Assembly (NCBI GenBank): GCA_016211095.1
Contig: JACQSW010000090.1
Coordinates: 1 to 29,148, forward strand
Direction: 5' to 3'
Length of the DNA stretch: 29,148 nucleotides
Source of the DNA: Candidatus Woesearchaeota archaeon
GTDB lineage: Archaea > Nanobdellota > Nanobdellia > SCGC-AAA011-G17 > GW2011-AR17
Shown: positions 211 to 24,229 of the stretch, one piece after another
How positions within the stretch are numbered: position 1 is the stretch's first letter
Layout of the letters: each line of letters starts with the position of its first letter
The notes under the pieces: model-generated
What the model saw: the letters and a program-made list of their open reading frames with translations, nothing else
Database searches by the model: none
Told to the model about the DNA's origin: nothing
Translations under genes and position numbers: made by a program

Positions 211-2805
211 ATGCGCGCTTTTAATGTTGGTGAAGTTCTAAAAGGATTAGAAACAGATAGTGGTGGGTTAAGCAGCGAAGAGGCAAAAGGTCGGCTAACG
301 AAATATGGTTTTAACGAGTTGCGTGGCGAAAAAAGGGTTTCTCCTCTAAAAATTTTTTTAAGCCAATTCAAAGACCCCCTTATTGTTATTCTTTTTGTAG
401 CAACGCTTGTGTCTGTTTATATAAATGAAGTTGCAGATGCTTTTATCATTGCTGCGATTATTGTTCTTAATGCTGTGGTCGGCTTTTTTCAAGAATTCAA
501 GGCAGAAAGGGCTTTTGAGTTGTTGAAAAAAATGAGTGTGCCGCACTGCATTGTCTTTAGGGATAGAAAAGAAGAGGTTATAGAATCAAGATTTTTAGTG
601 TCAGGCGATATAATCATTTTAGGGGCTGGTAATAAGGCGCCAGCTGATGCCCTGCTAATCGAATCGATGAGTTTAGAGGTTGACGAATCTGCTTTAACAG
701 GCGAATCTATCCCTGTCCAAAAGAGTATAGCCGAGGTAGACGAAGGTACCGCCTTGAGCGAAAGAAGCAACATGATTTTTTCTGGAACAACAATCACGCG
801 TGGCACGGGAAAAGCCGTTGTTGTTTCTACTGGTATGAATACTGAGTTTGGAAAAATAGCCAAGCTTGTGCAAACAATTGAAACAGCAACCACCCCTCTC
901 CAGAAAAAACTTCAAGGATTAGGCAAATGGCTAGGGGCAGTGATCCTGTTTATTTGTTTAATAATATTCGGCCTTGGTATCTTAACCGGTAAGTTTAATT
1001 TTTTTGAGCTATTCATGACTGTCTTAAGTTTAGCTGTTGCTGCTATACCTGAAGGATTGCCAGCAGTAGTGACTATTTGCTTGGCTTTAGGCTTGCGGAG
1101 GATGCTTAACCGTAAAGCTCTTATTCGAAGGCTAAAGGCTGTAGAAACTCTTGGAAGCATTACGGTCATCTGTACCGACAAGACTGGTACTCTGACAAAG
1201 AACGAAATGACTGCTATCCAATTATTTGTAAACAACCAGTACATAGATGTTAGCGGTTCAGGCTATGAAACTAGCGGCGAATTCAAAATCAACAACAAAG
1301 CAATCGATCCGAAACGAGTGAAGTTATTGCTGGAAATTGCAGCTTCTTGCAATGACTCAACATTAGAAATTGGTGACCCCACAGAGAGAGCGCTTGTTGT
1401 ATTGGCAAAGAAGGGGTTTGTTGAGAAGGATGAGGCAAGGATTGGTGGGATCCCCTTTGATTCAGACAAAAAGTATATGGCTACATTTCATAAGAATGGC
1501 TTGGCTTATTTTAAGGGTGCTCCAGAAAAAATCCTTGAAATGTGTGGTTACATACAAATAAACAGTTCTAAACGGCGAATAACTTCAAAAGAAAAAAGTG
1601 CAATCCTAAACGAGAGTGGGGAAATGGCTGCTTCTGCATTAAGGGTATTGGCTTGTGCGTATAGCCATGACAAGAAACTGCGAGACCTGACTTTTGTTGG
1701 TTTGGTTGGAATGATTGATCCACCAAGAGATGAAGCCCAAGAATCAATTGCGTTGTGTGAAAAAGCAGGAATAAGGGCAGTAATGATCACAGGGGATCAT
1801 TTGGTGACAGCGAAAGCGATAGCCAACAGAATTGGCTTAAAAGGCGATGCTATCAATGGAGACGAAATTGATAAGCTAAGCATGCCAGAGATGCAGGAAT
1901 TGGTAAAAAAAGTAACAATATTCGCGAGGGCGTCTTCAACGCATAAAGTCAGAATTCTTTCTGCCTTGCAAAAAAATGAAGAGATTGTGGCGATGACTGG
2001 GGATGGTATTAATGATGCGCCTGCACTAAAAAAAGCAAACGTCGGTGTGGCAATGAACATAAAAGGCACAGATGTTAGCCGGGAAGCTGCAGACATGACT
2101 CTTTTGGATGATAATTTTGCGACGATTGTTTCTGCAATAAGGGAGGGTCGCACAATTTATGACAATATCAAAAAGTTTGTCAAGTTCCTCTTAGCAGCTA
2201 ACCTTGGAGAAGTTTTACTTATCCTTATAGCGATAATTGTTAGCCTCCCTCTTCCGCTTCTGCCAATTCATATTCTTTGGATAAACCTTGTTACTGATAG
2301 TTTGCCTGCGCTTGCTTTAAGTGTGGAGAAGTCGGACCCAAAAATTATGGAGAGAAAGCCTCGGCCGGTTAATGAGAGCATATTCCATAATATAAAATTC
2401 TTTTTGATAGTTGCAGGCTTGTTAACAGCAATGAGCAGCTTAGCAGCGTTCTTGGTTTATTATTGGGATGGCGGGGATATTGTTAAAGCTCGGACGATTG
2501 CGCTCACAACAATAGTTGTATTTGAGTTGCTTCTTGTTTTTGCTTGCAGATCAAAAAAATTAACTTTGGTAGAGTTAGGCTTGTTTTCTAATAGGTATTT
2601 AGTTGGAGCAGTCGCTGTCTCATTCATTGCGCACCTCTTAATAATTTATACTCCGCTAAGCGCATTTTTCAAATTGGCCAGTCTAGGGTTGAATGATTGG
2701 CTGATAGTCTTAGCTTTCGGCGCTAGCGGCTTGTTATTTTTTGAAATAAAAAAGTTTTTCTTTCCAAACAAAGAATTAATTGTGCAGCCTTATGCACGTT
2801 TATAA
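211..2805 (+). CDS. P-type ATPase, P2A (Ca2+-transporting, SERCA/PacL-like), 864 aa
   Basis: Motifs [13 protein letters not shown] (M4), DKTGTLT (phospho-Asp), [29 protein letters not shown] and [14 protein letters not shown] (M6); about 10 hydrophobic segments. Confidence 0.96.
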
Positions 2806-4227
2806 AAAATTCTCCGGGTTTATCTTGCTTGTGATAAGCATTCTTTTAATGTTGTAGTCTATTAATAATTCCGTCTTTTTGTCATTATTCTTTTGCAACT
2901 CCCTCTCTAAATCTATTAAAGCTGAGAAGTCCAATTTTTTGTTAGTGTAAGCTTTTATCGTTGATATTCTGGTATTTTCTAAGTTGCTTATGTTCTCGTT
3001 TGTTGCTTTTATCCTGTTTTCTGCTTCCCTTAAGGCGCTGTATAAGTTTGTTATTTCAAGCTTTATGTTATTCTCTTCTTTTTGCATTTCCAAGGAGATG
3101 ATTATTTGGTCTGATTCTGATTTGGATTGCCTTGCTTCTGTATTTTTATCAAAAAATGGGAGGGGTATGTCTATACCTAATCCGAATTTGTACTCCTCTG
3201 TTTCTGGGTTGAATTTTCCTTCTAGGCCTATTTTTGCGTCACGAGTTGGACCTTTTTTGGCGGCTTTTGCTTCTTTTTGTATTGCTTGTTGGAATGCCCT
3301 TAATTTTTTTAGTTCGAGGCTGTTTTGTATTGAATTTTTGATGCAGTATTCTAAGTCTTGATTGAAAGGCAAATATTCTGGTGATGCAGTTATGCTAATT
3401 TCGGTGGTTAGTGCTAATCCTAAAAGGCTTTTGAGATTGTTAAGGATTCTTTCATAGTTGTTTTGCCTATTGTTAAGTGCGTCCTGCGCTGAGGATAGCT
3501 CTGTCGCTGCCCTCATCAAATCTGCCTCGAAGTTTGTTGTTTTTTTAATGATAGAATCATCTTCTTTTATGTTTAAGACGTAACTCTTTTGGTTGCCAAC
3601 GAAGGCGGTTATTTTTAGGACTTCGTAATAGTTTTGGGTTACAAATAGTTTAACGTCCCTAACGGCCTGTTCGTAGGTTATTTCTGCCGCTTCAAGCGTT
3701 GCATCTGCTATTGCCTGCTTTGCCTTTTCGTTAGCAGGAGTGGTGGATAGGTATGGGGTGGGGAAGCTAAATTTTAAGATTAGTTCGGGTTCAAATGTGC
3801 GAAATTGATTGTTTTCTGTAGAAGGTTTTTCTATTAATTCTTCTTTTCTTGTTTCCCGGATTATCCATTCGAGTTCCACTGCGTTTTTGAATTTTTGTTT
3901 TAGGTAGAGGTCTATGTTTGATTCTATTTTTGATTCTTCTTTGTCGTTATCGCCAGTTAAATCTTCTTTTCCTGTGTGGAGGTAGTTTGTTTTAAACCTT
4001 AACCCTACTTGTGGGGCATAATTTGCGTCGAACAAGTTTTTTTCTGCCTTAGCAAGGTTTAGCCTTTCGTTGGCTTGCTGTAATAACAAACTTTCGTGGA
4101 GAGCTAAGTCTAAGGTTGTTGTTTGATCTAATTTTAATGGTTGTGAGCCATTTGAGTAGGTTAATGTGGGGATTAGCAGAGAAGTTGTTGTTATAATTGC
4201 TGCAATTTTTTTAATTCGTTCCTTCAT
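2800..4227 (-). CDS. TolC/OEP-family outer-membrane efflux channel-like protein, 475 aa
   Basis: N-terminal signal-like peptide and two OEP-like repeats: LDLALHES...AKAEKNLFDANYAPQVGL; VKLFVTQNYYEVL; DLMRA...LKSLLGL; CIKNSIQNSLEL; GLGIDIPLPFFD; KAYTNKKLDFSALIDLEREL...DY. Confidence 0.8.
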   Translation of the reverse strand: MKERIKKIAAIITTTSLLIPTLTYSNGSQPLKLDQTTTLDLALHESLLLQQANERLNLAKAEKNLFDANYAPQVGLRFKTNYLHTGKEDLTGDNDKEESKIESNIDLYLKQKFKNAVELEWIIRETRKEELIEKPSTENNQFRTFEPELILKFSFPTPYLSTTPANEKAKQAIADATLEAAEITYEQAVRDVKLFVTQNYYEVLKITAFVGNQKSYVLNIKEDDSIIKKTTNFEADLMRAATELSSAQDALNNRQNNYERILNNLKSLLGLALTTEISITASPEYLPFNQDLEYCIKNSIQNSLELKKLRAFQQAIQKEAKAAKKGPTRDAKIGLEGKFNPETEEYKFGLGIDIPLPFFDKNTEARQSKSESDQIIISLEMQKEENNIKLEITNLYSALREAENRIKATNENISNLENTRISTIKAYTNKKLDFSALIDLERELQKNNDKKTELLIDYNIKRMLITSKINPENFL

Positions 4228-4918: not shown

Positions 4919-6535
4919 TTGAGTATCGTTAATTATTCGAAAGATGAAAAAACTGTTTTGGAACATTTCTTCTCAAACATTGACAAAAATGTCTATTTTG
5001 TGAAAAATTTGCCTGAGGAAGTGTGGGCAACGCTCAAAGGCTCTTACAGCAGGGAACATCTTTCTATGCGTGACAACTTCTTAAAAAAGATGAAAGAAGG
5101 GGGAGCAGACATCAAAGCCTTGGCTGAAGCTATCCGCATAACAAAAGAAGGAACTTCGTTGCAGAGGATAAAATCAAAAATCACCAGAAAACCGGTTGAG
5201 CAGTTAAGCCTTGAATATCTAATAAGCAAGGCGGGAAAGTTTTTGGAGACATGGGCGGTCAAGTATGGGCATAACTCGCTGAAGGAGGGTGCAGTCGCCA
5301 AAATTGCAGTTGAAGACGTTTCAATAATCTTAACTAAAATTATCGAGGATAATAGGTTAGCTTCTTACATAGAAAAATCAACTCGGTATTTGGATTTTAC
5401 AAAGAGCAGCCTCTTCTATGATTCAACATTAATAAGCTCGCATCACTCAAGGAGAGTTGAGGATAATGGAAACATGCTGATGGAGACTTACACAGAAATA
5501 CTCGAAAAACTTACGCCATTTGTTATTAAAAAAAGAGATGCGCTTAAGCCAGAAAAAGAAAAAATGAAAGCGTGGGAGAATGCTTGTAGGGCCGAGGCAT
5601 TCGACTCAGCGAGGTACGTGCTACCCGCGTGTGTCAAAACAAGTTTGGGATGGACTGTGAACGCTAGGGAACTAGAGCACGCAATCACTAAACTTTTATC
5701 AAGCGAGCTTGAAGAGGCGAAAAAGATAGGGGCGCTGCTTAAGGATGAAGGGACAAAAATTTTTCCAACACTCATAAGGCATGCAAAAGAATCTGAATAC
5801 TTAAAAGAAACAAACAAATCAATGAATAATTTATCCAAAAATTTGTTAAAAGATGATCCAAAAGAAGCAAATTTTGTTTCATTAGTTCACTCCGATGAAG
5901 GCTTAGAAGACAAACTGGTGGCTGCAATACTTTACAAATACTCCCAACAACCTTACTCACAAATATTTAAGCAGGTAAAAATTTTTTCTGAAAAACAAAA
6001 AAACGAAGTTTTCGAAGAATATTTGAAAAGGCGCAGCAACCATGAAGCCATGCTTAGGGGGATGGAAGCGGGGGAATTTGTTTTCGACATCCTAATTGAT
6101 TTTGGAGCTTTCAGGGATATACAGCGGCATAGGATTGGAACGCAGATACCCCAAACATTAACCACCTTTCACGGCTACACAACGCCTGAGTTAATAGTTG
6201 AGGCAGGCTTGGAAAAAAAGTTTCGAACAGCAATGGAAGAATCTGCCAAGAACCACCAACTAGTCTACAAAGATTATCCTGAACAAGCTCAGTATATGGT
6301 TCCGTTAGCATTCAAAAAACGGGTTTACCTAAAGTTTAATCCGAGGCAAACAGCATATTTCATTGAACTCAGGTCAGGGGAGCAGGGCCACGTATCTTAC
6401 CGAAAGCTTGCAATAATGATGCATCAGATTATAGAAGAAAAATACCCAAACTTTGCTAAATTCATAAAAGTCAACAAGAACAATATTGATATGCCGAGAT
6501 TAAATGCGGAACTAAAAGCTTTGAACAAGAAATAA
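4919..6535 (+). CDS. thyX: FAD-dependent thymidylate synthase ThyX, tandem two-domain form, 538 aa
   Basis: EKSTRY (SxRY) and ARYVLP..T..G.T.NARELEH in domain 1; DIQRHR and YFIELRS in domain 2. TTG start with a GGGGG SD. Confidence 0.88.
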   Translation: MSIVNYSKDEKTVLEHFFSNIDKNVYFVKNLPEEVWATLKGSYSREHLSMRDNFLKKMKEGGADIKALAEAIRITKEGTSLQRIKSKITRKPVEQLSLEYLISKAGKFLETWAVKYGHNSLKEGAVAKIAVEDVSIILTKIIEDNRLASYIEKSTRYLDFTKSSLFYDSTLISSHHSRRVEDNGNMLMETYTEILEKLTPFVIKKRDALKPEKEKMKAWENACRAEAFDSARYVLPACVKTSLGWTVNARELEHAITKLLSSELEEAKKIGALLKDEGTKIFPTLIRHAKESEYLKETNKSMNNLSKNLLKDDPKEANFVSLVHSDEGLEDKLVAAILYKYSQQPYSQIFKQVKIFSEKQKNEVFEEYLKRRSNHEAMLRGMEAGEFVFDILIDFGAFRDIQRHRIGTQIPQTLTTFHGYTTPELIVEAGLEKKFRTAMEESAKNHQLVYKDYPEQAQYMVPLAFKKRVYLKFNPRQTAYFIELRSGEQGHVSYRKLAIMMHQIIEEKYPNFAKFIKVNKNNIDMPRLNAELKALNKK

Positions 6536-14008: not shown

Positions 14009-16996
14009 TTATTTGAGTTTTAATCCAACCCCTTCAAGTATTTTTTTAGCTCTGTCTTCAGGTATTTCGTCTTGAGTTATTTGGCAAAGCATGCTCAAGT
14101 TTTTTCTTAAACCAATCGGTGTTCCTTCAGGAGTTTCTATTGGGCAATTATGGGTGATGAAGCCATTTGCTATAAATGAATGAGTATTTTCCGCTGTAGT
14201 GAAATCCCTCACATCATCCAAATCCTCGACTTCTTTACACACTATTTTTTCCCATACCGCCCCAGAAGCCCCCAGTTTAGACTCTTTTAGCCATACATCA
14301 TAAGGCAGTAACATGTTTTGAGAAAGCCTTGTATTTTCATATTTGGAAGGCTCAAAAAGCCACCCCTGCACAACCCTATAATTAAGATTTAAAATAGCCG
14401 AAATTTTCTTAGGCTTAACGCCGCCTTTATACAATTTTTTTGCTTCATTTTTTAGGTTGATTCTCTTGTTGACGGCGAAATCGTGTAGCCTTAGCCACTC
14501 CCCAATATAATTTGCTTCCCTCTCTTTTTGTATGCAATACCTGTATCCTATCCTCGTTAATAGGGTTTTAATATTCTTTTGAGATTTTCCAAAAATAATT
14601 TCGCATTTTAGCATAGTTGAGCCATCTTTTCTTAGATAGTCTTCCTTAAGGCGTATATTTTTGATAACGAATCCAAACTCGCCGAATAATTTCTTAATGT
14701 CTTGGGAAAATTTAATGATATTCTCTTTCATATCGGCTCTTTTGTGGAATATTAGGCTGTCAATATGCAGTTTAGAACCGGATTTTCTGTCTATTCTTTT
14801 AGTAAATCTTGGCTTAGGGCCATCTCCGCCAAGCAAAGCGGCTAAAAATTCCCTTTTCGCAGACAGGCTTGCTTTAAGGACCCAACTAGGAAGTTCGACA
14901 TTAACATCAGTTTTTTTACCAACAGGTGCGCCACTACAAACTAGCAAAGCATGTAAGGCCCCACCTTTACTTAACATAAAAGTTTTATAATTCACTATCT
15001 TATCCCCTATTTTTATTCTTGTGTGTTTTTCCATTATTTTCGAAGGCTCAAAGCCCAATAATCTTATATCGTTGGCTATTGCTTCAGCATCTTCTTTAGT
15101 TCCGCAATAAAACTCTAAATTATTTTTTCCGCAATGCCCATCAGAAAAGATGTGCCCTAATAACCTAGCTACTATTTCAATCTTATAGTTGTTTATTGTA
15201 AAAGGGATAAGTTCGTTGGTTTTCAATTGCTTAATGTAATGCTTGAATCTGTTTGGATAATTTTTTACAAGATTCTCTTCGCTTACAATAGCCAAGCCAA
15301 GATTATTTGTTGGAAGCTGAGGCAGTTCGGTACCGTCTAGAGCAGGGTAAACAGCAACCTTATCCCCTGCTTTTAGCTTTGAGGCATCGGTCCATCCGTT
15401 TTCTGTATAGAAAGGATGGTCTTCGGTGGCGGTTACCTCTCTACCACTTTCAGAGATTAATTTGTAAACTTTTTTGCCCATAAGTTTTGGATTTGAGGTA
15501 TAGTAATTAGATATTGAGGAAGACCTTAAACTTTTAGTGGCACTATCAAAACTGCTAACCTTGTGATGACTCCAGCAATTCTGCAATAATTCTAAGGTTC
15601 GATGAGAATATTTATCAGCTAATAACACGCGAGTGTCTTTCTTTAAGCATAACCGCCCCCAATGGGTCGGGTGCAGTTCCCTTGCTTCGAAGTTTTCTTG
15701 TGAAGCTGATAGCATTGAGACAACTCTTTGCAGGTGTGAGGTAGTTGCTAGGAAGTTTATTCTATCAATATTTTGGCTTATTCCTTTTCTTCCACCAACC
15801 CATGACCCTGTTGCCATTGCGCTTTTTATTCGGGAACTGAGTAGTTTGTCCCTTATGATTATCCTTACTGATTGGAATTTGCCTCTTTTGACTAGCCTTT
15901 GGAAGTTGTATATTATGTCGTTTACTAGCAATCTCATGTTTACTCGTAGCAAGTCTGCAAGTAAGTCACCGCTGAGTTTCAGTTTTTTGTTTTTGTAATG
16001 GTCCTTGTCAGGTATGGTCACATTCCTTTTGGAGACCCTTAACATTTTTTTCATTACCTTGCATAAATTGTAAGCCTTGTATAATCTTTCTTTTGGGGTG
16101 ATGCCTATGTGTGGAAGCAGATAGAGGTCAAGTTGTTCAAGTGTTTTTTCTTCTTTAAACTCTTTTGGCTGCAGCATGCCTGCTTTTTTAGATAAGAACT
16201 CAACTGCTTGATTTACTGTCCTTAAGTCTATAGAATTGTAAAGGTTTATGTAGACTTCGTCGTATTCTTCGCCTTCTTCGCAGACCAGATTCATTATTTC
16301 TTGATCTGTTGTTAGCCCCAAGGCTTTTATTACTGCGATTATGGGTATCTTTTTGAATCTAGTGAATGAGATGTAGATTATGCCATCCTTCATTTGTTCT
16401 ATCAAATGGGGTATGCTGTATGAACCTTTTTGTGAGAATAATTTTGCTGTGTAAGGGCTCGGCCCAGTCAAGTTTTTTTGTATAAAAACTTTATTTGTTA
16501 CTAAGTCTTCTACAGTTATTAATACCCTTTCGTTTCCGTTAAGAATAAAATATCCTCCTGGATCAGTTGGGTCTTCTCCGTATTTTATAAGTTCCTCTTC
16601 GTTTAATTCGCTTAGGTGGCACAATTTTGATTTAAGCATGACAGGTAGTTTGCCTATTTGTGCGTTAAAGGATTCTCGCGCTACACCGTCAGAGTATGTA
16701 CTTACGTCAAGTTGCATTGGCGCAGAATAAGTTAACTTTCTTAGTCTCGCTTCTATAGGGAAAATCTTTTTTGTTGAGCCATCAGCTTCAATTAGCTGCG
16801 GCTTGTTTATTGTTATATTATCAAATCTTATTTTGAAGTCTTGCATCTCTGGAGGGATTATTGTTGGAACAATATCTCCTACTTCGTTTACGATTTGTTG
16901 TACTTCCCTGCTTATGAATTTGTTAAATGATTTGATGTTGGACTCTATGAAGGAGTGCTCTTCAAAGTATTTTTTAACTAATAATTCTTTAGTCAT
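14009..16996 (-). CDS. rpoB2: RNA polymerase subunit B'' (Rpo2N) precursor with intein (494-aa extein after splicing)
   Basis: EARLRKLTYSAP, DPGGYFILNGNERV and FEARELHPTHWGRL|CPIETPEG, which is rejoined after removing residues 450-950. Confidence 0.97.
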   Translation of the reverse strand: MTKELLVKKYFEEHSFIESNIKSFNKFISREVQQIVNEVGDIVPTIIPPEMQDFKIRFDNITINKPQLIEADGSTKKIFPIEARLRKLTYSAPMQLDVSTYSDGVARESFNAQIGKLPVMLKSKLCHLSELNEEELIKYGEDPTDPGGYFILNGNERVLITVEDLVTNKVFIQKNLTGPSPYTAKLFSQKGSYSIPHLIEQMKDGIIYISFTRFKKIPIIAVIKALGLTTDQEIMNLVCEEGEEYDEVYINLYNSIDLRTVNQAVEFLSKKAGMLQPKEFKEEKTLEQLDLYLLPHIGITPKERLYKAYNLCKVMKKMLRVSKRNVTIPDKDHYKNKKLKLSGDLLADLLRVNMRLLVNDIIYNFQRLVKRGKFQSVRIIIRDKLLSSRIKSAMATGSWVGGRKGISQNIDRINFLATTSHLQRVVSMLSASQENFEARELHPTHWGRLCLKKDTRVLLADKYSHRTLELLQNCWSHHKVSSFDSATKSLRSSSISNYYTSNPKLMGKKVYKLISESGREVTATEDHPFYTENGWTDASKLKAGDKVAVYPALDGTELPQLPTNNLGLAIVSEENLVKNYPNRFKHYIKQLKTNELIPFTINNYKIEIVARLLGHIFSDGHCGKNNLEFYCGTKEDAEAIANDIRLLGFEPSKIMEKHTRIKIGDKIVNYKTFMLSKGGALHALLVCSGAPVGKKTDVNVELPSWVLKASLSAKREFLAALLGGDGPKPRFTKRIDRKSGSKLHIDSLIFHKRADMKENIIKFSQDIKKLFGEFGFVIKNIRLKEDYLRKDGSTMLKCEIIFGKSQKNIKTLLTRIGYRYCIQKEREANYIGEWLRLHDFAVNKRINLKNEAKKLYKGGVKPKKISAILNLNYRVVQGWLFEPSKYENTRLSQNMLLPYDVWLKESKLGASGAVWEKIVCKEVEDLDDVRDFTTAENTHSFIANGFITHNCPIETPEGTPIGLRKNLSMLCQITQDEIPEDRAKKILEGVGLKLK
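14147..15649 (-). mobile_element. Intein with LAGLIDADG homing endonuclease, 501 aa, in RpoB''
   Basis: Begins CLKKDTRVLL (Cys1) and ends FIANGFITHN before extein Cys+1. Block B is TATEDHPFYT. Endonuclease motifs are RLLGHIFSDG and FLAALLGGDG. Removal restores GRLCPIETPEG. Confidence 0.96.
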
Positions 16997-17721: not shown

Positions 17722-18207
17722 TCATTTTTTGGGGGTTTTTTGAATGACTTCTTCAACAAGGTCTCTTAACTTTTTTGTTGTTGTATCAAGAACTATGATT
17801 CGATGTTTTAATTCTAACGCTTCATTCAAACAGACATCAAATATTTCTGCATCTAGGTTCTCTCTTATTTTTTCTTCGTTGTATCCCCTTTTTTGTAGGC
17901 GTTTCTTCAAGACTTTTAAATCGCATTTGGTTATTATGCATAAATCCACATATTTTTTTGGGATAAAGTGGGATAGGTGGGAGTCTATAATTAATTCTTT
18001 TTCTTTCTGGATTAGCTCAATAAGGATATTGCTTAATTTTTCTTCGTCAACGATGGCGCAGTTTCTTTTCTCATCGAAGCCTTCTTCTAGTTTGTTTGCT
18101 TTAATTATTTTGTTTACGTCAATATATTTTGCATTAAGTTTTTTGGCTAAAGCCTTTGCTAACGCAGTTTTTCCAGTTCCAGGGGTTCCACTTACACAAA
18201 TTATCAT
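17722..18207 (-). CDS. AK6/Fap7-family (COG1936-type) nucleotide kinase/ATPase, 161 aa
   Basis: P-loop SGTPGTGKT, IIDSHLSH, RLQKRGY and KIRENLDAEI. Confidence 0.9.
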   Translation of the reverse strand: MIICVSGTPGTGKTALAKALAKKLNAKYIDVNKIIKANKLEEGFDEKRNCAIVDEEKLSNILIELIQKEKELIIDSHLSHFIPKKYVDLCIITKCDLKVLKKRLQKRGYNEEKIRENLDAEIFDVCLNEALELKHRIIVLDTTTKKLRDLVEEVIQKTPKK

Positions 18208-19922: not shown

Positions 19923-20267
19923 TTAATATTTGGTTATTCTTAAGTTGTTGCCTTCTTGTTTTACAACGCTGAAAACTCCGGCTACATGCTTGAAGTACCT
20001 CTTTGCCCTCCTTGCCTGCTCCTTTATTCTTCTTTTTGCTTTAGTTGTTGTGCTTGTGGTTACTTCAACAATATAGGGTTGGCCGTATGTATTCCACAAA
20101 ACGAGGTCCACTTGCCCTAATTTTCTTCCATCGCTGAGGTAGGGTACTTCTTCCTTGTAGGAGATTATTTTCTCTAATGCTAGAACACCAGGGTTGTCGA
20201 TGATGCTTCTTTTTAATGCTTCATGCTCCGCGAAGGAGCCGTTGCATTTATGCCGCGACCTATGCAT
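19923..20267 (-). CDS. Small PD-(D/E)xK-fold nuclease-like protein, 114 aa
   Basis: EEVPY...GQVDLVL...YIVEVTT...EQARRAKRYF follows the E...D-x(n)-E-x-K plus Q-xxx-Y layout, but has Thr at the Lys position. Confidence 0.55.
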   Translation of the reverse strand: MHRSRHKCNGSFAEHEALKRSIIDNPGVLALEKIISYKEEVPYLSDGRKLGQVDLVLWNTYGQPYIVEVTTSTTTKAKRRIKEQARRAKRYFKHVAGVFSVVKQEGNNLRITKY

Positions 20268-20271
20268 GAAT

Positions 20272-22806
20272 TTAAATTATTGAGTTGTTGAATAATTTTT
20301 CGGTGTTTACCTTAGGCTTTTCATTAGCCCATTTAGTTATGTATTCTACTGGGAATTCTATCGTTACTATTGGGCCTTTGGCTGGGCCATCAATTGGGAA
20401 GCCGTTAATCTTGAATCCCCTCATTGGTGAACCGTAATTAAGCATTTCTCCAAACTCGTTTCTGTCCATGAAACAGTAGCCTATGTCGTGTAAAACATTT
20501 TTTGAGGTTGTTTGCCCACCCATGTGGGTGTGCCCTGCCCTGTTGATAACGTATTTTTCTTTGAATTCTGGAAAGTCTTGGCCACGCCTGTCGAATGCTA
20601 ATCTTGTGGTTCTCGTTGGGTCCTTGGAGCTTTTTGAGCTACCTTGTTTGTGCCTGCAGTATTCTCCCCATAAGTAGTGGTCTTTTACGCCAAAAGTTCC
20701 TGAATAAACCCCTCCTTTTCCAAGAATTTTTGCCTGTATTTCTTCATTCGCAGCTTTTAGCCTTATCTTTAACTCTCTTGCAAGTTCTTCTGATGTGTTT
20801 TGCAATCCTTCAAATGTGTGGACGTTATGGTTTCCGTTTAGGATGTTTATTACTGGGCCGTAAAGCTTTGCATCTCGAGCCCTTTTTAGTGTTTTGGCCA
20901 ATAACTCTTCTATTAATGAGTCAAGGAAATCAAATCTTTGTTTTTGCGGCGAGATTATTCCGCTTCTTATTGTGTTACGCTTCAAGAGTTTTGTTAGCTC
21001 TTTTTGTTTCTTTTCAGGATTATCCTTGTACATTTCCATTATTCTTCCAATTTCTTTTTCTAATTGTGCAGGGTAGAGGTATTCTTCATGTTCCTCTTTT
21101 TCTGTGTCGTAGTTTTTTTCTTGGAGCTCATCCCCTAATGAGTTAATTTTTATTATTGGGGCGTTTATTGCGAGGACGAGTTCTTGAGCTACGGTGAACG
21201 CATATTTTATGTCAGACTCTGTTTCTATCACAGAGACATATTTTGAGCCATGATGTTGGTCAGATATGTTAAGTTCATACAACATTTTATGTTCTGTAAC
21301 TTTTTCTTTTTCGCTGAATGCATCATCGTTTGTTAAGAAATTGCTTGTTAATAGTTTTCTTTTCTGTATTCCAGTGATATATTCTAAGATTAGCGCTCCA
21401 GAATTAAAATCGTATTTTGTTGCGAGTTTAGTCATTTTGTTGCCGGCTACCCGAACCCTATCCTTTAGGATGTCTTCCAGGCTTTCCTCGTCTAGGCATG
21501 TAGGCAGTTGGATTAGGGTTATAGTTCCCTGTTTTTTATCAATGTAAGGGACTAAGTCTTGAGTGTATGTTGCGCTTAACCCGCCAGCAACAACTATATC
21601 GGGAGCTTCGCCCTTTGCTGACAAATTCATCCTTGTTACTTCAACCAATTTATCCATTAGGTTGTCTGCTATTTTGCTAGTCAGTTTATCCGTGCTCGCT
21701 ACAACCTTTATTATTTTGTTGCCGATTTTGATGTGGGCTTCTCCAGTTGAGATGACCTTGCTGTTTGGTATAGCTGATTCTATTTTGTCAATTATGTACC
21801 CTTTCATTTTTTCGTCCCCAAGCCTCATATATTCGTCGTTAGTGTTGCTCATCAGTACCCTTGTTTTGTATTCTTCTATGTCTGCTAGCTGTTGGACGAT
21901 TTTTTCTTTTGTTATCTCTAAACTTCTATGTTGCTTGATCTGTTTTTCAGAAACTTCTTCCTCGCTTTCTGATAGTTTGACAAATTCTTTTATTTGCTTG
22001 TTTACCCCTTTTAATTCAGATTTTAGTTCAGCGATTCTGACTCGTGTTGATTCTTTTTCTTTTGCTATTTCTATCCTTAATGCTTCTACGGTGTGCTGCC
22101 GTGTTAGCTCTTCTTCTACGTCGCCAAAAACTATGTAAACCTTGTTGTTAAAGAGGGGTTTTCCTTCTTTGTTTAGGAATAGTGGTCTTAGGGCGTCTTG
22201 TATAACCATCTCTAGCCTTTCCTTGAATGTTACGTAAATCGGCTTTTTTTCTTTTAGCAGCGTTTTAGGATCCCTTCCGGCAGCTTTTATTGCGTCAGGG
22301 TAGATTACTGTTTGTGAGTCGGTTTTTAGTTCTGTTGTTACTGCTCGGTCCACTTTGTATTTGGAGAATCGTGTGATGTCCATCCAGATGGTGTTGCCTG
22401 TTAGCACTATGCCGTCAACTTTGTCTGCTTCTGCATATCTTAGGAAGTTTCTGAATAGCTTCTTGTTCGTTTTTCCCCCAGCATAGATTGTGTTTGCAAA
22501 CCCTAGTTTGAAGTCTTCGCCGTCTTTCGAGGGGACTTCTGTTGGTTGGAGATAAGTTGATATTGGTGATTGATAAGTTGAGTTGGAAACTATTTCTTCT
22601 ATTGATGAGATGGCACTGTAAAGCGGTGTGCTTTCGTTGCCTATAGGTTCTATTTGCAGATGTTTTCCTGCTGTCTGCAACTTTTTCAGTTTTCTTGTTA
22701 TCGTGCTTTCAGGCAGGTTAAACCTTTTTGCCAATGCTTTTTTTGTAGAAGGCTTTTTTTTGAGGTATTCCCAAATTTTTATTTCATCTGGTGATAGTTC
22801 AATCAC
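20272..22806 (-). CDS. HTH + degenerate metallophosphoesterase + coiled coil + intact calcineurin-like metallophosphoesterase, 844 aa
   Basis: N-terminal wHTH (KKALAKRFNLPESTITRKLKKL). The C-terminal domain has all five motifs (SDQHHG, LGDE, GNHN, RHK, GHTH). The N-terminal copy has degenerate equivalents (NTIYAG, TGNT, FGDV, AGGLS). GTG start with a GGGGGG SD at 22814-22819. Confidence 0.8.
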   Translation of the reverse strand: MIELSPDEIKIWEYLKKKPSTKKALAKRFNLPESTITRKLKKLQTAGKHLQIEPIGNESTPLYSAISSIEEIVSNSTYQSPISTYLQPTEVPSKDGEDFKLGFANTIYAGGKTNKKLFRNFLRYAEADKVDGIVLTGNTIWMDITRFSKYKVDRAVTTELKTDSQTVIYPDAIKAAGRDPKTLLKEKKPIYVTFKERLEMVIQDALRPLFLNKEGKPLFNNKVYIVFGDVEEELTRQHTVEALRIEIAKEKESTRVRIAELKSELKGVNKQIKEFVKLSESEEEVSEKQIKQHRSLEITKEKIVQQLADIEEYKTRVLMSNTNDEYMRLGDEKMKGYIIDKIESAIPNSKVISTGEAHIKIGNKIIKVVASTDKLTSKIADNLMDKLVEVTRMNLSAKGEAPDIVVAGGLSATYTQDLVPYIDKKQGTITLIQLPTCLDEESLEDILKDRVRVAGNKMTKLATKYDFNSGALILEYITGIQKRKLLTSNFLTNDDAFSEKEKVTEHKMLYELNISDQHHGSKYVSVIETESDIKYAFTVAQELVLAINAPIIKINSLGDELQEKNYDTEKEEHEEYLYPAQLEKEIGRIMEMYKDNPEKKQKELTKLLKRNTIRSGIISPQKQRFDFLDSLIEELLAKTLKRARDAKLYGPVINILNGNHNVHTFEGLQNTSEELARELKIRLKAANEEIQAKILGKGGVYSGTFGVKDHYLWGEYCRHKQGSSKSSKDPTRTTRLAFDRRGQDFPEFKEKYVINRAGHTHMGGQTTSKNVLHDIGYCFMDRNEFGEMLNYGSPMRGFKINGFPIDGPAKGPIVTIEFPVEYITKWANEKPKVNTEKLFNNSII

Positions 22807-23094
22807 TCATAATCCCCCCTTTTTTGTCTTAAATTTTGTAAAATGATTAGCTGTATAAAAAGATTTGTATACAAAAAGAGTGATTTGAACAAGATACCGG
22901 TACAAAAATGAAAGAAATATGCTTTTGACCCCTTTTGTGAACCCATCTTCTTTTTTTGTAAAAGTCCACTTTTAGTTATTCCTAATCATTAATGCATATG
23001 AGAAGTATTTAAGCCTTGCTTTTTTTTTTGCAGTCTATTTCAGATTAACCGAATTTTGTCGAATAAGCTCCCAAAAATGCGTGTTAAGCAAACT

Positions 23095-23102
23095 TTTATA
23101 TA
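23095..23102 (+). promoter_or_regulatory. TATA box (TTTATATA) for the CoaD-HD gene
   Basis: Lies 26 nt before ATG 23129 and supports that start over 23081. Confidence 0.55.
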
Positions 23103-23128
23103 ATCCTTTTAAAATCCCTTGTCTCGAA

Positions 23129-24229
23129 ATGAATAAGGCTGTTTATGCGGGAAGTTTCGACCCAATAACAAATGGGCACTTATGGATGATTGAGCAGGGC
23201 GCAAAATTATTCGGCAAATTAGTCGTCGCTATTGGTGTAAACCCTGATAAGAAGCACGCATTTTCTTTAGATGAAAGATTAACGATGTTAAGAAAGACGA
23301 CGCGCAATTTTTCAAATGTAACTGTAGAGTCTTTTGAGAATAATTTTCTAGTGAATTATGCAAGTTCGGTTAATGCTCAATATGTCCTAAGGGGGATAAG
23401 GAGTGTTGGGGATTATGAATATGAACGCGAAATGAGATACATCAATACAGATTTAAATTCTGATATCACAACAATATTCCTGACGCCGCCAAGAGAAATA
23501 GCAGAGATTAGCTCAAGCTTAATCAAGGGTCTTGTCGGGCCGGAGGGATGGGAAGAAGTGATAGAAGGGTACATACCGAGAAATGTTTACAACAAGTTCC
23601 TCACAAAGTTCAATGGCCTGCATACTGGATGGAATTCTCTTTGGAGCGCGATAAATGCGAAAGGCAACTCTGAAAGTGTTTATAACGAAATTATAAATTT
23701 GTACGGAGAACCAGCTAGGGCTTATCACAATTTGGTGCACATTGCTCACGCTCTACGTGAATGCGCAACCATTAAAGGGTTGTTAACAAATCCAAGCCAA
23801 GTTGAGGCTGCAATCTGGTTTCACGACGCCGTTTACAACACATCCGCAAAAGACAATGAAGACAAGAGTGCACAGCTTGCCCAAAAAAAATTAAGCGAAG
23901 CAGGATTGCCCGAGCAGTTCGTGACGAATGTTTCTCAACTAATCCTCGCAACTAAACATACAAATATCCCGCAGGACAAAGATGCACAATACATCATCGA
24001 TATTGATTTGGCAATACTTGGAAAAACTGCAAAGGAATTTGACGAGTACGAACGAGACATAAGGGATGAGTATGCTTGGGTGCCAGAAGAACAATTCAAA
24101 CAGGGCAGGCGGGCAATCTTAAAATCTTTTCTCGAAAGACCATCTCTTTATACAACTGGCTTCTTTAAGGAAAAGTATGAAAAGGAAGCGAGAAAAAACC
24201 TTGAAAGGTCCATTACTCAATTAAGTTGA
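23129..24229 (+). CDS. coaD: Fusion of bacterial-type phosphopantetheine adenylyltransferase (CoaD) and an HD-superfamily phosphohydrolase (COG4339-like), 366 aa
   Basis: CoaD part: AVYAGSFDPITNGH, LRGIRSVGDYEYE, ISSSLIK. HD part: YHNLVHI, WFHDAVY, DIDLAILG, IRDEYAWVP...GRRAIL. Confidence 0.88.
   Translation: MNKAVYAGSFDPITNGHLWMIEQGAKLFGKLVVAIGVNPDKKHAFSLDERLTMLRKTTRNFSNVTVESFENNFLVNYASSVNAQYVLRGIRSVGDYEYEREMRYINTDLNSDITTIFLTPPREIAEISSSLIKGLVGPEGWEEVIEGYIPRNVYNKFLTKFNGLHTGWNSLWSAINAKGNSESVYNEIINLYGEPARAYHNLVHIAHALRECATIKGLLTNPSQVEAAIWFHDAVYNTSAKDNEDKSAQLAQKKLSEAGLPEQFVTNVSQLILATKHTNIPQDKDAQYIIDIDLAILGKTAKEFDEYERDIRDEYAWVPEEQFKQGRRAILKSFLERPSLYTTGFFKEKYEKEARKNLERSITQLS

What the first reader, a model, noticed from the sequence alone, without database searches (positions are those of the whole stretch)
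20272..22806. 844-aa protein pairing a degenerate and an intact metallophosphoesterase, with an HTH and a coiled-coil arm
Seen: the order is wHTH, phosphoesterase copy 1, phosphoesterase copy 2. Copy 1 has lost its metal ligands (DxH to NTI, GD to GN, GNH to GDV, GHxH to GGL) and carries a long charged coiled-coil insert after motif III. Copy 2 has all ligands (SDQHHG ~21250, GD ~21135, GNH ~20830, GHTH ~20530). The SDxHxGSK...GxCF pattern resembles DP1/Mre11-related and phage-type HTH-phosphoesterases. Inference: internal duplication gave a pseudo-enzyme (ligand or nucleic-acid sensor) gating an active nuclease or phosphodiesterase. I do not recognise this architecture as a described family.
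Basis: partly seen in the sequence, partly recalled or inferred. Interest (0 to 1): 0.75.

Follow-up and report, generated by a model that had tools for sequence, protein, structure and literature searches.

The report
Tandem dead-plus-live archaeal phosphoesterase
This 844-residue protein of a tiny groundwater DPANN archaeon joins a DNA-binding-type winged helix, an inactive phosphoesterase domain with a long helical arm, and an intact DP1/Mre11-like phosphoesterase domain. It belongs to an unnamed, very fast-evolving family of DPANN archaea and CPR bacteria, and it is probably a nuclease whose substrate is still unknown.

Summary
ORF 20272-22806(-) is real and full-length, and it has homologues (37-56% identical in Woesearchaeota, Nanoarchaeota and Aenigmatarchaeota; about 20% in a Parcubacteria bacterium). 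A confident AlphaFold model (pLDDT 93, pTM 0.89) shows four parts:
- a winged helix (residues 1-75);
- a metallophosphoesterase (MPE) fold (about 86-494) that has lost its metal ligands in the whole family;
- a helical hairpin arm of about 117 residues inside that fold;
- a second MPE fold (503-844) with all ligands and the catalytic His.

Both halves are structurally closest to the PolD small subunit DP1 (Z 16.7 and 19.0). The protein is not DP1, because the genome has its own DP1 and an Mre11-like gene. Pfam, NCBIfam, PHROGs and PADLOC do not recognise the body.

Two points are new here. A small PD-(D/E)xK-like gene follows directly in 5 genomes. In relatives, the same chromosomal slot holds either a homologue visible only by profile comparison (hhalign 99.8%) or two separate MPE genes, one of which lacks the catalytic His.

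The profiles of the two halves show no similarity, so internal duplication is unsupported. The 'sensor gating' idea was not tested. The most likely function is a single-site, metal-dependent nuclease. This scan had already noted the same superfamily on other genomes.

The parts
20272..22806 (-). Whole gene, 844 aa plus stop codon (GTG start)
   Evidence: Full-length homologues.
22582..22806 (-). Winged helix-turn-helix, residues 1-75 (three helices plus a beta hairpin wing)
   Evidence: Sub-threshold Pfam HTH_24/TrmB/HTH_11/MarR hits at residues 2-52. The family profile matches MarR-type AdcR (E 3.6e-5) and PH1932. The model shows H6-17, H22-28, H33-45, E50-55, E60-65.
21325..22551 (-). Inactive metallophosphoesterase fold, residues about 86-494. 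The ligand positions read N105-T-I107, G137-N138, G228-D-V230 and G408-G-L-S411.
   Evidence: N-half folded alone has pLDDT 94.7. VIA hits: DP1 Z 16.7, p50 Z 15.3, MJ0936 Z 14.4 with 165/165 residues aligned. Family-wide loss of ligands, with G110 in 66/66, E231 in 63/66 and N105 in 57/66 kept.
21772..22122 (-). Helical hairpin arm (coiled-coil-like) inserted after motif III of the inactive domain, residues 229-345
   Evidence: Helices 229-281, 287-316 and 324-345. SMC coiled-coil and CHMP4B hairpin hits at Z about 10. Present in all 66 members at 86-181 residues.
20275..21300 (-). Intact metallophosphoesterase domain, residues 503-844: D516, H518, D559, N659, H660, H719, H759, H761
   Evidence: VIA: DP1 PDE domain Z 19.0, rmsd 3.1, 228 residues aligned, 16% identity; p50 Z 14.6; Mre11 Z 14.4. 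Foldseek PDB and Swiss-Prot lists are headed by DP1. Conservation: D559, H660 and G658 in 66/66; H518 and H761 in 62/66.
20869..21072 (-). Four-helix insert between motifs II and III of the active domain, residues 579-646, carrying R614, G616, P620 and the invariant Q623
   Evidence: Helices 579-592, 597-614, 620-630 and 633-646. Q623 in 66/66 and G616 in 60/66. The insert is present in all members at 87-137 residues.
19923..20267 (-). Small downstream gene (114 aa, P0131), 4 nt after the stop codon. It is PD-(D/E)xK-like; invariant residues are H15, E16, K19, E39, E40, D54, E68, T70, R80, Q84 and K89.
   Evidence: The same family lies directly downstream in 5 genomes, aligned as A6. The fold assignment is only a lead: Pfam HSDR_N_2 / SduA_C at E about 0.1, and Atlas neighbours AHJR-like, PDDEXK_3 and Hjc at 0.84-0.88.
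22814..22860 (-). Upstream signals, by inference only: TTTTATA (22854-22860) and a G-run (22814-22819) 8-13 nt before the GTG
   Evidence: Read directly from the sequence. Not tested statistically.

Best explanation
The gene encodes a cytoplasmic, metal-dependent phosphodiesterase with a single active site, most likely a nuclease acting on DNA (or RNA) ends or strands.

Shown:
- One chain holds a winged helix.
- It holds a catalytically dead MPE fold with a helical hairpin arm that is always present.
- It holds a live MPE fold with the full set of dinuclear-metal ligands, the catalytic His of motif III, and a conserved helical insert with an invariant Gln.
- Both MPE folds are nearest to the PolD proofreading subunit DP1.

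Inferred:
- The live domain cuts phosphodiester bonds in the DP1/Mre11 manner.
- The dead domain is a built-in partner that takes the place of a second subunit. It scaffolds the active domain and, with the winged helix and the arm, holds substrate or partner proteins.
- In part of the family, the product works with the small PD-(D/E)xK-like protein encoded directly downstream.

The gene is an accessory, very fast-evolving gene of DPANN archaea and CPR bacteria. It is not the cell's DP1 or Mre11.
For: Model quality:
- pLDDT 93.1 and pTM 0.89 for the whole chain.
- pLDDT 94.7 for the N-half folded alone.

Folds:
- C-half: DP1 Z 19.0, about 4 Z units above p50 and Mre11.
- N-half: DP1 Z 16.7, and all top 40 hits are MPE folds.
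- DP1 also heads the Foldseek PDB and Swiss-Prot lists.

Active-site conservation in 66 members:
- D559, G658 and H660 in 66/66.
- H518 and H761 in 62/66.
- N659 in 61/66.
- H719 in 55/66.
- Q623 in 66/66.

Dead site, family-wide: motif I Asp is never present and no His sits at the motif I His position, yet G110, E231 and N105 are conserved.

The winged helix is supported.

The 'dead plus live pair' recurs in one chromosomal slot, upstream of the small gene, NT5C and AAA_18:
- the P0001 type (L033);
- a type that BLAST cannot relate (E 0.41) but hhalign aligns end to end (99.8%, E 6e-28, 782 columns);
- in G001, two adjacent paralogous MPE genes, one intact and one with GNH changed to GNA and GHxH changed to GYxH.

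The genome has a separate genuine DP1 (478 bits, cut-off 445) and an Mre11-like gene.
Against: - No biochemical evidence exists, and no substrate is indicated by any characterised close relative.
- MPE folds with these motifs also hydrolyse cyclic nucleotides, Ap4A, lipid A precursors and phosphoproteins. Rv0805, CpdA, SapH, LpxH and CPPED1 are all in the hit lists.
- Sequence profiles of the family find no MPE in the PDB or Pfam, so kinship to DP1 rests on structure alone (15-16% identity).
- The winged helix could serve protein contacts or regulation rather than substrate binding.
- The small-gene association holds in only part of the family, and each gene occurs without the other.
- The relative placement of the two MPE domains could not be inspected, because no coordinates or PAE were available.
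Confidence: 0.5

Rival explanations
1. Nucleotide-salvage nuclease. The enzyme degrades DNA or RNA to mononucleotides that feed the salvage enzymes encoded around it. Small symbionts that cannot make nucleotides de novo would need such an enzyme.
For: Nucleotide-metabolism genes in the window:
- AAA_18 nucleotide-kinase-like;
- AA_kinase (UMP-kinase-like);
- Ham1 ITPase;
- HD/YfbR-like 5'-deoxynucleotidase;
- ThyX.

In relatives:
- NT5C deoxynucleotidase and AAA_18 lie directly beside the gene.

Other loci:
- Q_salvage follows the gene in the Aenigmatarchaeota locus.
- Tmk and UMPH-1 sit at the same place in genomes that lack the gene.
- The family is confined to DPANN and CPR as far as searched.
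Against: - The nucleotide genes are present and adjacent even where the MPE gene is missing. The neighbourhood may therefore be only positional.
- A bulk degradative nuclease needs neither a winged helix, nor a dead partner domain, nor an arm.
- Extreme sequence divergence is unusual for a metabolic enzyme.
- CPR loci show no such neighbours.
Confidence: 0.17
2. Conflict or defence module. The large protein and the small PD-(D/E)xK-like protein form a two-gene system against viruses or other foreign DNA, or one used on the host's DNA. The dead domain and arm sense a trigger, and one or both nucleases execute.
For: - Sequence turnover is very fast, and mutually exclusive variants fill one slot: six genomes carry the P0001 type and five others the G006 type.
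- Distribution is patchy: 3 of 300 high-quality genomes of the phylum with the family profile. The gene is truly absent from the slot in G003 and G011.
- The small gene is tightly coupled in 5 genomes.
- The nearest look-alikes of both proteins are phage proteins.
Against: - No PADLOC model matches the body. Only the HTH gives weak Csa3/CARF-HTH-type hits.
- No defence genes, integrase or mobile-element marks are nearby.
- GC content is as in the flanks.
- Neighbours are housekeeping genes, with synteny kept across genera.
- Either gene occurs without the other.
- No sequence relatives were found in GenBank phages or IMG/VR.
Confidence: 0.15
3. Small-molecule phosphodiesterase or phosphatase (cyclic or linear nucleotides such as cAMP, c-di-NMP, Ap4A, 2',3'-cyclic ends) fused to a winged helix. 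It would be a signalling or regulatory enzyme, not a nuclease.
For: - Class III cyclic-nucleotide phosphodiesterases (Rv0805, CpdA), GpdQ, the Ap4A hydrolase SapH and MJ0936 are all in the structural hit lists.
- The conserved helical insert with the invariant Gln could form a lid over a small substrate.
Against: - These hits score 4-6 Z units below DP1 for the active domain.
- The SD-x-H-x-GS and GNH motif forms, the size, and the arm are more like the nucleic-acid enzymes.
- No cyclase or receptor gene is nearby.
Confidence: 0.1
4. Polymerase accessory subunit. The protein is a DP1/B-subunit paralogue that docks on a replicative or repair polymerase, as DP1 does on DP2 and the inactive B-subunits do on eukaryotic polymerases.
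For: For both halves the best structural matches are DP1 and the inactive B-subunits p50 and Pol31.
Against: - There is no PF04042 match, whereas the genome's own DP1 matches it.
- No OB fold was identified in front of either PDE domain.
- Members occur in CPR bacteria. By general knowledge, not tested here, CPR bacteria lack PolD.
- Distribution is patchy.
- No polymerase gene is adjacent.
Confidence: 0.03

Closest known systems
PolD small subunit DP1 (3'-5' proofreading exonuclease; PDB 5ihe, 6hmf, 8ppt, 6t8h)
   Same: - Best structural match of both halves: C-half Z 19.0, rmsd 3.1, 228 residues; N-half Z 16.7.
- Same SD-x-H-x-GS, GD, GNH and GHxH motif set in the active half, including the His whose mutation (H451) makes the proofreading-deficient DP1 variant listed.
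   Different: - 12-16% identity, and no PF04042 or NCBIfam DP1 match.
- Two PDE folds instead of OB + PDE.
- It carries a winged helix, a helical arm and a helical insert.
- The genome has its own DP1.
- The family also occurs in CPR bacteria.
Eukaryotic polymerase B-subunits (Pol delta p50, Pol zeta Pol31, Pol alpha and epsilon B; PDB 3e0j, 8tlq, 5vbn, 3flo)
   Same: Their PDE fold has lost catalysis and serves as a scaffold, which is the reading proposed for the N-half (Z 15.3 to p50, 14.3 to Pol31).
   Different: - Those are separate subunits with an OB fold that dock on polymerase C-terminal domains.
- Here the dead fold is fused to a live one and carries a hairpin arm.
Mre11 / SbcD nucleases
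   Same: - MPE nuclease fold (Z 13-14.4 for both halves).
- Mre11 works as a pair of MPE domains beside the long coiled coils of Rad50 (established knowledge). This protein also pairs two MPE folds and has a helical arm.
   Different: - No capping domain was recognised.
- No Rad50/SbcC gene is adjacent.
- The arm is an insert in the MPE fold itself.
- One of the two domains is dead.
- The genome has a separate Mre11-like gene.
- NCBIfam Mre11 and SbcD models do not match.
Phage HTH-metallophosphoesterase proteins, including SPbeta YonJ (uncharacterised) and phage 'DNA polymerase II small subunit'-annotated proteins
   Same: - Nearest neighbours by language-model features (0.93) and by shape in ESM Atlas, BFVD and Swiss-Prot.
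- Many combine an HTH with one DP1-like MPE.
- One 678-aa, partly viral cluster aligns across residues 6-837 (TM 0.53/0.64).
   Different: - No sequence-level match in GenBank phages or IMG/VR or PHROGs.
- Most are single-domain proteins of 250-450 aa.
- Their function is also unknown.

Membership tests
Calcineurin-like metallophosphoesterase superfamily (C-terminal half) | Alpha/beta sandwich MPE fold | tested here: met
   Residues 503-824 align to DP1 (Z 19.0), p50 (14.6), Mre11 (14.4), Rv0805 (13.3) and others. Foldseek probability is 1.00 for many MPEs.
Calcineurin-like metallophosphoesterase superfamily (C-terminal half) | Five motifs with metal ligands: DxH, GD, GNH, H, GHxH | tested here: met
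   D516/H518, D559, N659/H660, H719 and H759/H761. They are conserved across 66 members.
Calcineurin-like metallophosphoesterase superfamily (C-terminal half) | Match to Pfam Metallophos (PF00149) or Metallophos_2 (PF12850) | tested here: not met
   No hit even at E <= 10. None in 36 distant members. The profile of the C-half finds no MPE chain in the PDB by sequence.
Calcineurin-like metallophosphoesterase superfamily (N-terminal half) | MPE fold | tested here: met
   Folded alone, the top 40 of 48,161 chains are all MPE: DP1 Z 16.7, p50 15.3, MJ0936 14.4 over its whole length.
Calcineurin-like metallophosphoesterase superfamily (N-terminal half) | Metal ligands present (active enzyme) | tested here: not met
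   Positions read N105/I107, N138, D229/V230 and G409/S411. Across the family the motif I Asp is never present and the motif I His is never present.
DP1 / DNA_pol_E_B family (PolD small subunit) | Match to PF04042 or to the NCBIfam DP1 equivalogs | tested here: not met
   No hit for P0001. The genome's real DP1 on contig C91 scores 54 bits against PF04042 and 478 bits against NF003118.
DP1 / DNA_pol_E_B family (PolD small subunit) | OB fold preceding the PDE domain | tested here: inconclusive
   Alignments to DP1 cover its PDE domain (chain 345-619). No OB-fold match was listed, but the linker regions were not folded or searched alone.
DP1 / DNA_pol_E_B family (PolD small subunit) | Partnership with DP2 (large subunit) | not testable with these tools
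   No DP2 gene is adjacent. Binding was not examined.
Mre11 / SbcD | Match to Mre11/SbcD models, and a Rad50/SbcC partner gene adjacent | tested here: not met
   No NCBIfam Mre11 or SbcD hit for P0001. Neighbours are TldD-like, CoaD-like and the small gene. A separate Mre11-like gene lies on C96.
PD-(D/E)xK nuclease fold (small downstream protein P0131) | Core motif with acidic residues and Lys on a beta-strand scaffold, and a recognised family match | tested here: inconclusive
   Invariant E16, D54, E68-x-T70 and K89 fit a variant motif. Only sub-threshold Pfam and PADLOC hits and Atlas leads at 0.84-0.88.

The most novel reading that the evidence does not exclude
The dead-plus-live MPE giant, with the small PD-(D/E)xK-like protein where present, is a lineage-specific nuclease machine of episymbiotic DPANN archaea and CPR bacteria. 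It evolves under an arms race. It would be either a new kind of defence system or a device for cutting up host or foreign DNA. That would explain why one chromosomal slot holds versions so diverged that BLAST no longer relates them.
Probability: 0.2. Interest if true: 0.8.

Novelty: new variant of a known kind. Interest (0 to 1): 0.55.

Why it matters
DPANN archaea and CPR bacteria have tiny genomes, so a retained gene of about 850-1250 codons that belongs to no named family is notable.

The protein offers a natural case of a pseudoenzyme fused to its active paralogue-like partner within the DP1/Mre11 type of nuclease fold. The same genomic slot shows three solutions: two fused types that are barely related in sequence, and a split gene pair. 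That gives a ready comparative system for asking what the dead domain and the arm do.

If the enzyme is a nuclease tied to DNA scavenging or to conflict with hosts and viruses, it bears on how these symbionts live. The result also shows that single-query homology counts badly underestimate how widespread this family is.

Tried and rejected
Searches that recognised nothing beyond the HTH:
- Pfam, PHROGs, NCBIfam and PADLOC on P0001 give only weak HTH hits.
- Pfam on 36 distant members gives only HTHs.
- phmmer and profile searches of PDB sequences match only wHTH regulators and coiled coils.
- tblastn against GenBank phages finds no match.
- IMG/VR pattern scan finds no relative.
- Four literature searches found no paper describing the family.

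Internal duplication:
- hhalign of the N-half profile against the C-half profile gives probability 0.3%. Protein comparison on the two alignments failed.

'It is the cell's DP1 or Mre11':
- Rejected, because both exist elsewhere in the genome.

'Provirus or mobile island':
- No integrase and no GC shift; neighbours are housekeeping genes.
- The nearby tRNA-Asp is not flanked by element marks that I could see.

Binding of the small protein to the large one:
- Complex prediction returned 'no answer' (score 0.00), after seven refusals because the machine was busy.
- This counts neither for nor against binding.

Other:
- Expression: no RNA holder is listed. The DNA is held by four groundwater metagenome runs of one study.
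- The pseudo-dimer geometry of the two MPE domains could not be examined, because the tools give no coordinates or PAE.
Full report
**Setting**

The window is a chromosomal piece of a small archaeon.
- It carries the archaeal RNA-polymerase cluster: RpoH, a split RpoB whose first part holds an intein, RpoA' and RpoA''. It also carries NusA-KH, S12 and S7, a tRNA-Asp, and many nucleotide-metabolism genes.
- The assembly is 927 kb in 152 contigs and 85% complete.
- The DNA is held by groundwater metagenome runs.
- Named homologues of the target come from Woesearchaeota, Nanoarchaeota and Aenigmatarchaeota. The organism is therefore a DPANN archaeon.

**The observation**

- ORF 20272-22806(-) encodes 844 residues from a GTG.
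- Homologues align from the first residues. A G-run lies 8-13 nt upstream and a TTTTATA about 46 nt upstream.
The active-type motifs are SDQHHG at 515-520, GD at 558-559, GNH at 658-660 and GHTH at 758-761.
- The degenerate counterparts are NTI at 105-107, GN at 137-138, GDV at 228-230 and GGL at 408-410.

**Family**

- A word-indexed search found 16 full-length relatives at 37-56% identity.
- An exhaustive HMMER search found 117 clusters at 50% identity, mostly 800-1270 aa.
- One distant member is annotated from a Parcubacteria bacterium. Its contig carries bacterial ribosomal proteins, RF-1 and EF-Ts.
- No curated library recognises the body of the protein: Pfam, PHROGs, NCBIfam and PADLOC. 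The same holds for 36 distant members and for family profiles against PDB sequences.

**Structure**

With a 66-sequence alignment, AlphaFold2 gives pLDDT 93.1 and pTM 0.89.
- Residues 1-75 form three helices and a beta hairpin, a winged helix. This agrees with weak HTH_24/TrmB/MarR hits and a profile match to MarR-type AdcR.
- Residues 78-500 folded alone (pLDDT 94.7) were aligned to 48,161 PDB representatives without a Foldseek prefilter. The top 40 are all metallophosphoesterases. They are headed by DP1 (Z 16.7, 231 residues, rmsd 3.6), Pol delta p50 (Z 15.3) and MJ0936 (Z 14.4 over all its 165 residues).
- The inserted helices 229-281, 287-316 and 324-345 match SMC coiled-coil and CHMP4B hairpins (Z about 10).
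- In the whole model, residues 503-824 match the PDE domain of DP1 at Z 19.0 (rmsd 3.1, 228 residues, 16% identity). That is about 4 Z units above p50 and Mre11.
- DP1 also heads the Foldseek PDB and Swiss-Prot lists.

**Dead and live sites**

Counts come from the 66-member alignment.

N-half:
- The motif I Asp is Asn in 57 members and never Asp.
- The motif I His is Pro, Ile or Leu and never His.
- The motif II Asp is Asn in 38, Gly in 16 and Asp in 6.
- The motif V histidines are Gly in 50, and Ser in 32 or Asn in 27.
- G110 (66/66), E231 (63/66) and N105 are nevertheless kept, so the dead pocket is under selection for something.

C-half:
- D559, G658 and H660 are invariant.
- H518 and H761 are present in 62, N659 in 61, H719 in 55.
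- H759 alternates with Asp (34 to 30).
- Q623, on the four-helix insert between motifs II and III, is invariant.

The arm (86-181 residues) and the insert (87-137 residues) are present in every member. The N-terminal region varies from 18 to 381 residues.

**Duplication**

Profile-profile comparison of the two halves gives probability 0.3%. Both halves resemble DP1 most, which is compatible with an old duplication, but nothing here shows it.

**Not DP1, not Mre11**

The genome has a genuine DP1 (PF04042 at 54 bits; NF003118 at 478 bits against a cut-off of 445). It also has an Mre11-like gene, YfcE-type phosphodiesterases and an SbcD-related archaeal phosphoesterase on other contigs.

**Neighbourhood and the small gene**

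- Four nucleotides after the stop codon begins a 114-aa gene.
- Its family lies directly downstream of the large gene in five genomes: the window, L001, G016, L033 and L034.
- It has invariant acidic and basic residues that fit a variant PD-(D/E)xK motif. The fold is only a lead.
- The pairing is not obligate. G002, G005 and others have the large gene without the small one. G001 and G006 have the small gene without a P0001-type protein.

**The slot in relatives**

Following the small gene into G006 and G001 gave the most informative result.
- In G006 the slot is [X] - small gene - NT5C - AAA_18 - S10 - EF-1alpha, as in L033. It holds a 1000-aa protein that BLAST cannot relate to P0001 (E 0.41).
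- That protein's family (five genomes) aligns to the P0001 family end to end by hhalign (99.8%, E 6e-28, 782 columns, 15% identity). It shows the same order of motifs.
- The six genomes with the P0001 type and the five with the G006 type do not overlap.
- In G001 the syntenic slot holds two overlapping, paralogous MPE genes (35% identical). Both reach Pfam Metallophos. One has all motifs. The other has GNH changed to GNA and GHxH changed to GYxH.
- So at least 12 of 25 genomes of this GTDB family carry some form.
- The low counts from single queries (5 of 24 in the family; 3 of 300 high-quality genomes in the phylum) are underestimates.
- In G003 and G011 the place beside AAA_18 holds UMP-kinase-like, Tmk, UMPH-1 and gyrase genes and no such protein. 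There the gene is absent from that place.

**Look-alikes in viruses**

- By language-model features and by shape, the nearest clusters are phage HTH-phosphoesterase proteins. Among them are SPbeta YonJ (uncharacterised) and phage proteins annotated 'DNA polymerase II small subunit'.
- No sequence-level relative was found in GenBank phages or IMG/VR.

**Reading**

Shown:
- the architecture;
- the family-wide dead-plus-live pattern;
- the DP1-like nature of both folds;
- the accessory and fast-evolving character of the gene;
- the recurrent slot.

Inferred:
- The live domain is a nuclease, by likeness to DP1 and Mre11.
- The dead domain, arm and winged helix scaffold it or hold substrate and partners.
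- The small protein cooperates in part of the family.

Rivals differ mainly in the biological role:
- nucleotide salvage, because the neighbourhood is rich in nucleotide enzymes, although these remain where the gene is missing;
- a conflict or defence module, because of fast turnover, patchiness and phage look-alikes, although there are no defence neighbours or known models;
- a small-molecule phosphodiesterase;
- a polymerase accessory subunit.

A complex prediction of the large and small proteins gave no answer and counts for nothing.

**Earlier notes of this scan**

- A first-stage note on this same stretch proposed a two-gene system (e1-5286796).
- Four follow-up notes on other genomes describe tandem dead-plus-live phosphoesterase giants of DPANN archaea, with DP1 or Mre11 as closest known (e1-5317979, e1-4808215, e1-3319172, e1-5304386).
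- They agree with what I found independently on this protein. They are AI notes, not independent evidence.

**Verdict**

This is an undescribed variant within the metallophosphoesterase superfamily, and its function is open.

Noticed in passing
window 14009-16996 (-): The first part of the split RNA polymerase subunit B (995 aa) carries an intein (Intein_splicing across residues 469-950, with a weaker PT-HINT match at 482-547) inserted after Rpb2 domain 3.
   Followed up: no
window 2800-4227 (-): A 475-aa protein has two Outer-membrane-efflux-protein (OEP/TolC-type, PF02321) stretches at E 6.6e-21. That is odd for an archaeon without an outer membrane.
   Followed up: no
window 4919-6535 (+): The ThyX-type thymidylate synthase ORF is 538 aa and has two Thy1 stretches. 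It is about twice the usual length, which suggests a tandem or fused ThyX.
   Followed up: no
window 23081-24229 (+): A bacterial-type phosphopantetheine adenylyltransferase (TIGR01510 CoaD, 172 bits, residues 20-176) carries about 200 extra C-terminal residues of unknown nature. It is transcribed divergently from the target.
   Followed up: no
L036 2865-4991 (G001:C5): Two overlapping paralogous short MPE genes (282 and 311 aa, 35% identical) precede the small PD-(D/E)xK-like gene, in synteny with the window's slot. The second lacks the catalytic His and one metal His.
   Followed up: partly
L035 1943-4945 (G006:C8); also G013, G015, G021, G022: A second, 920-1000-aa type of the same superfamily is unrecognisable by BLAST but scores 99.8% by hhalign. 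It is found only in genomes that lack the P0001 type.
   Followed up: yes
L041 2300-6058 (G003:C2): Gyrase subunit A of a related genome carries an intein with a LAGLIDADG homing-endonuclease domain.
   Followed up: no
window 17722-18207 (-) and related loci L001, L020, L022, L033, L035, L036, L041, L043: An AAA_18 (Fap7/adenylate-kinase-like) gene anchors a conserved cluster of nucleotide-metabolism genes: NT5C, UMP-kinase-like, Tmk and UMPH-1. The MPE giant is inserted into this cluster in some genomes and not in others.
   Followed up: partly
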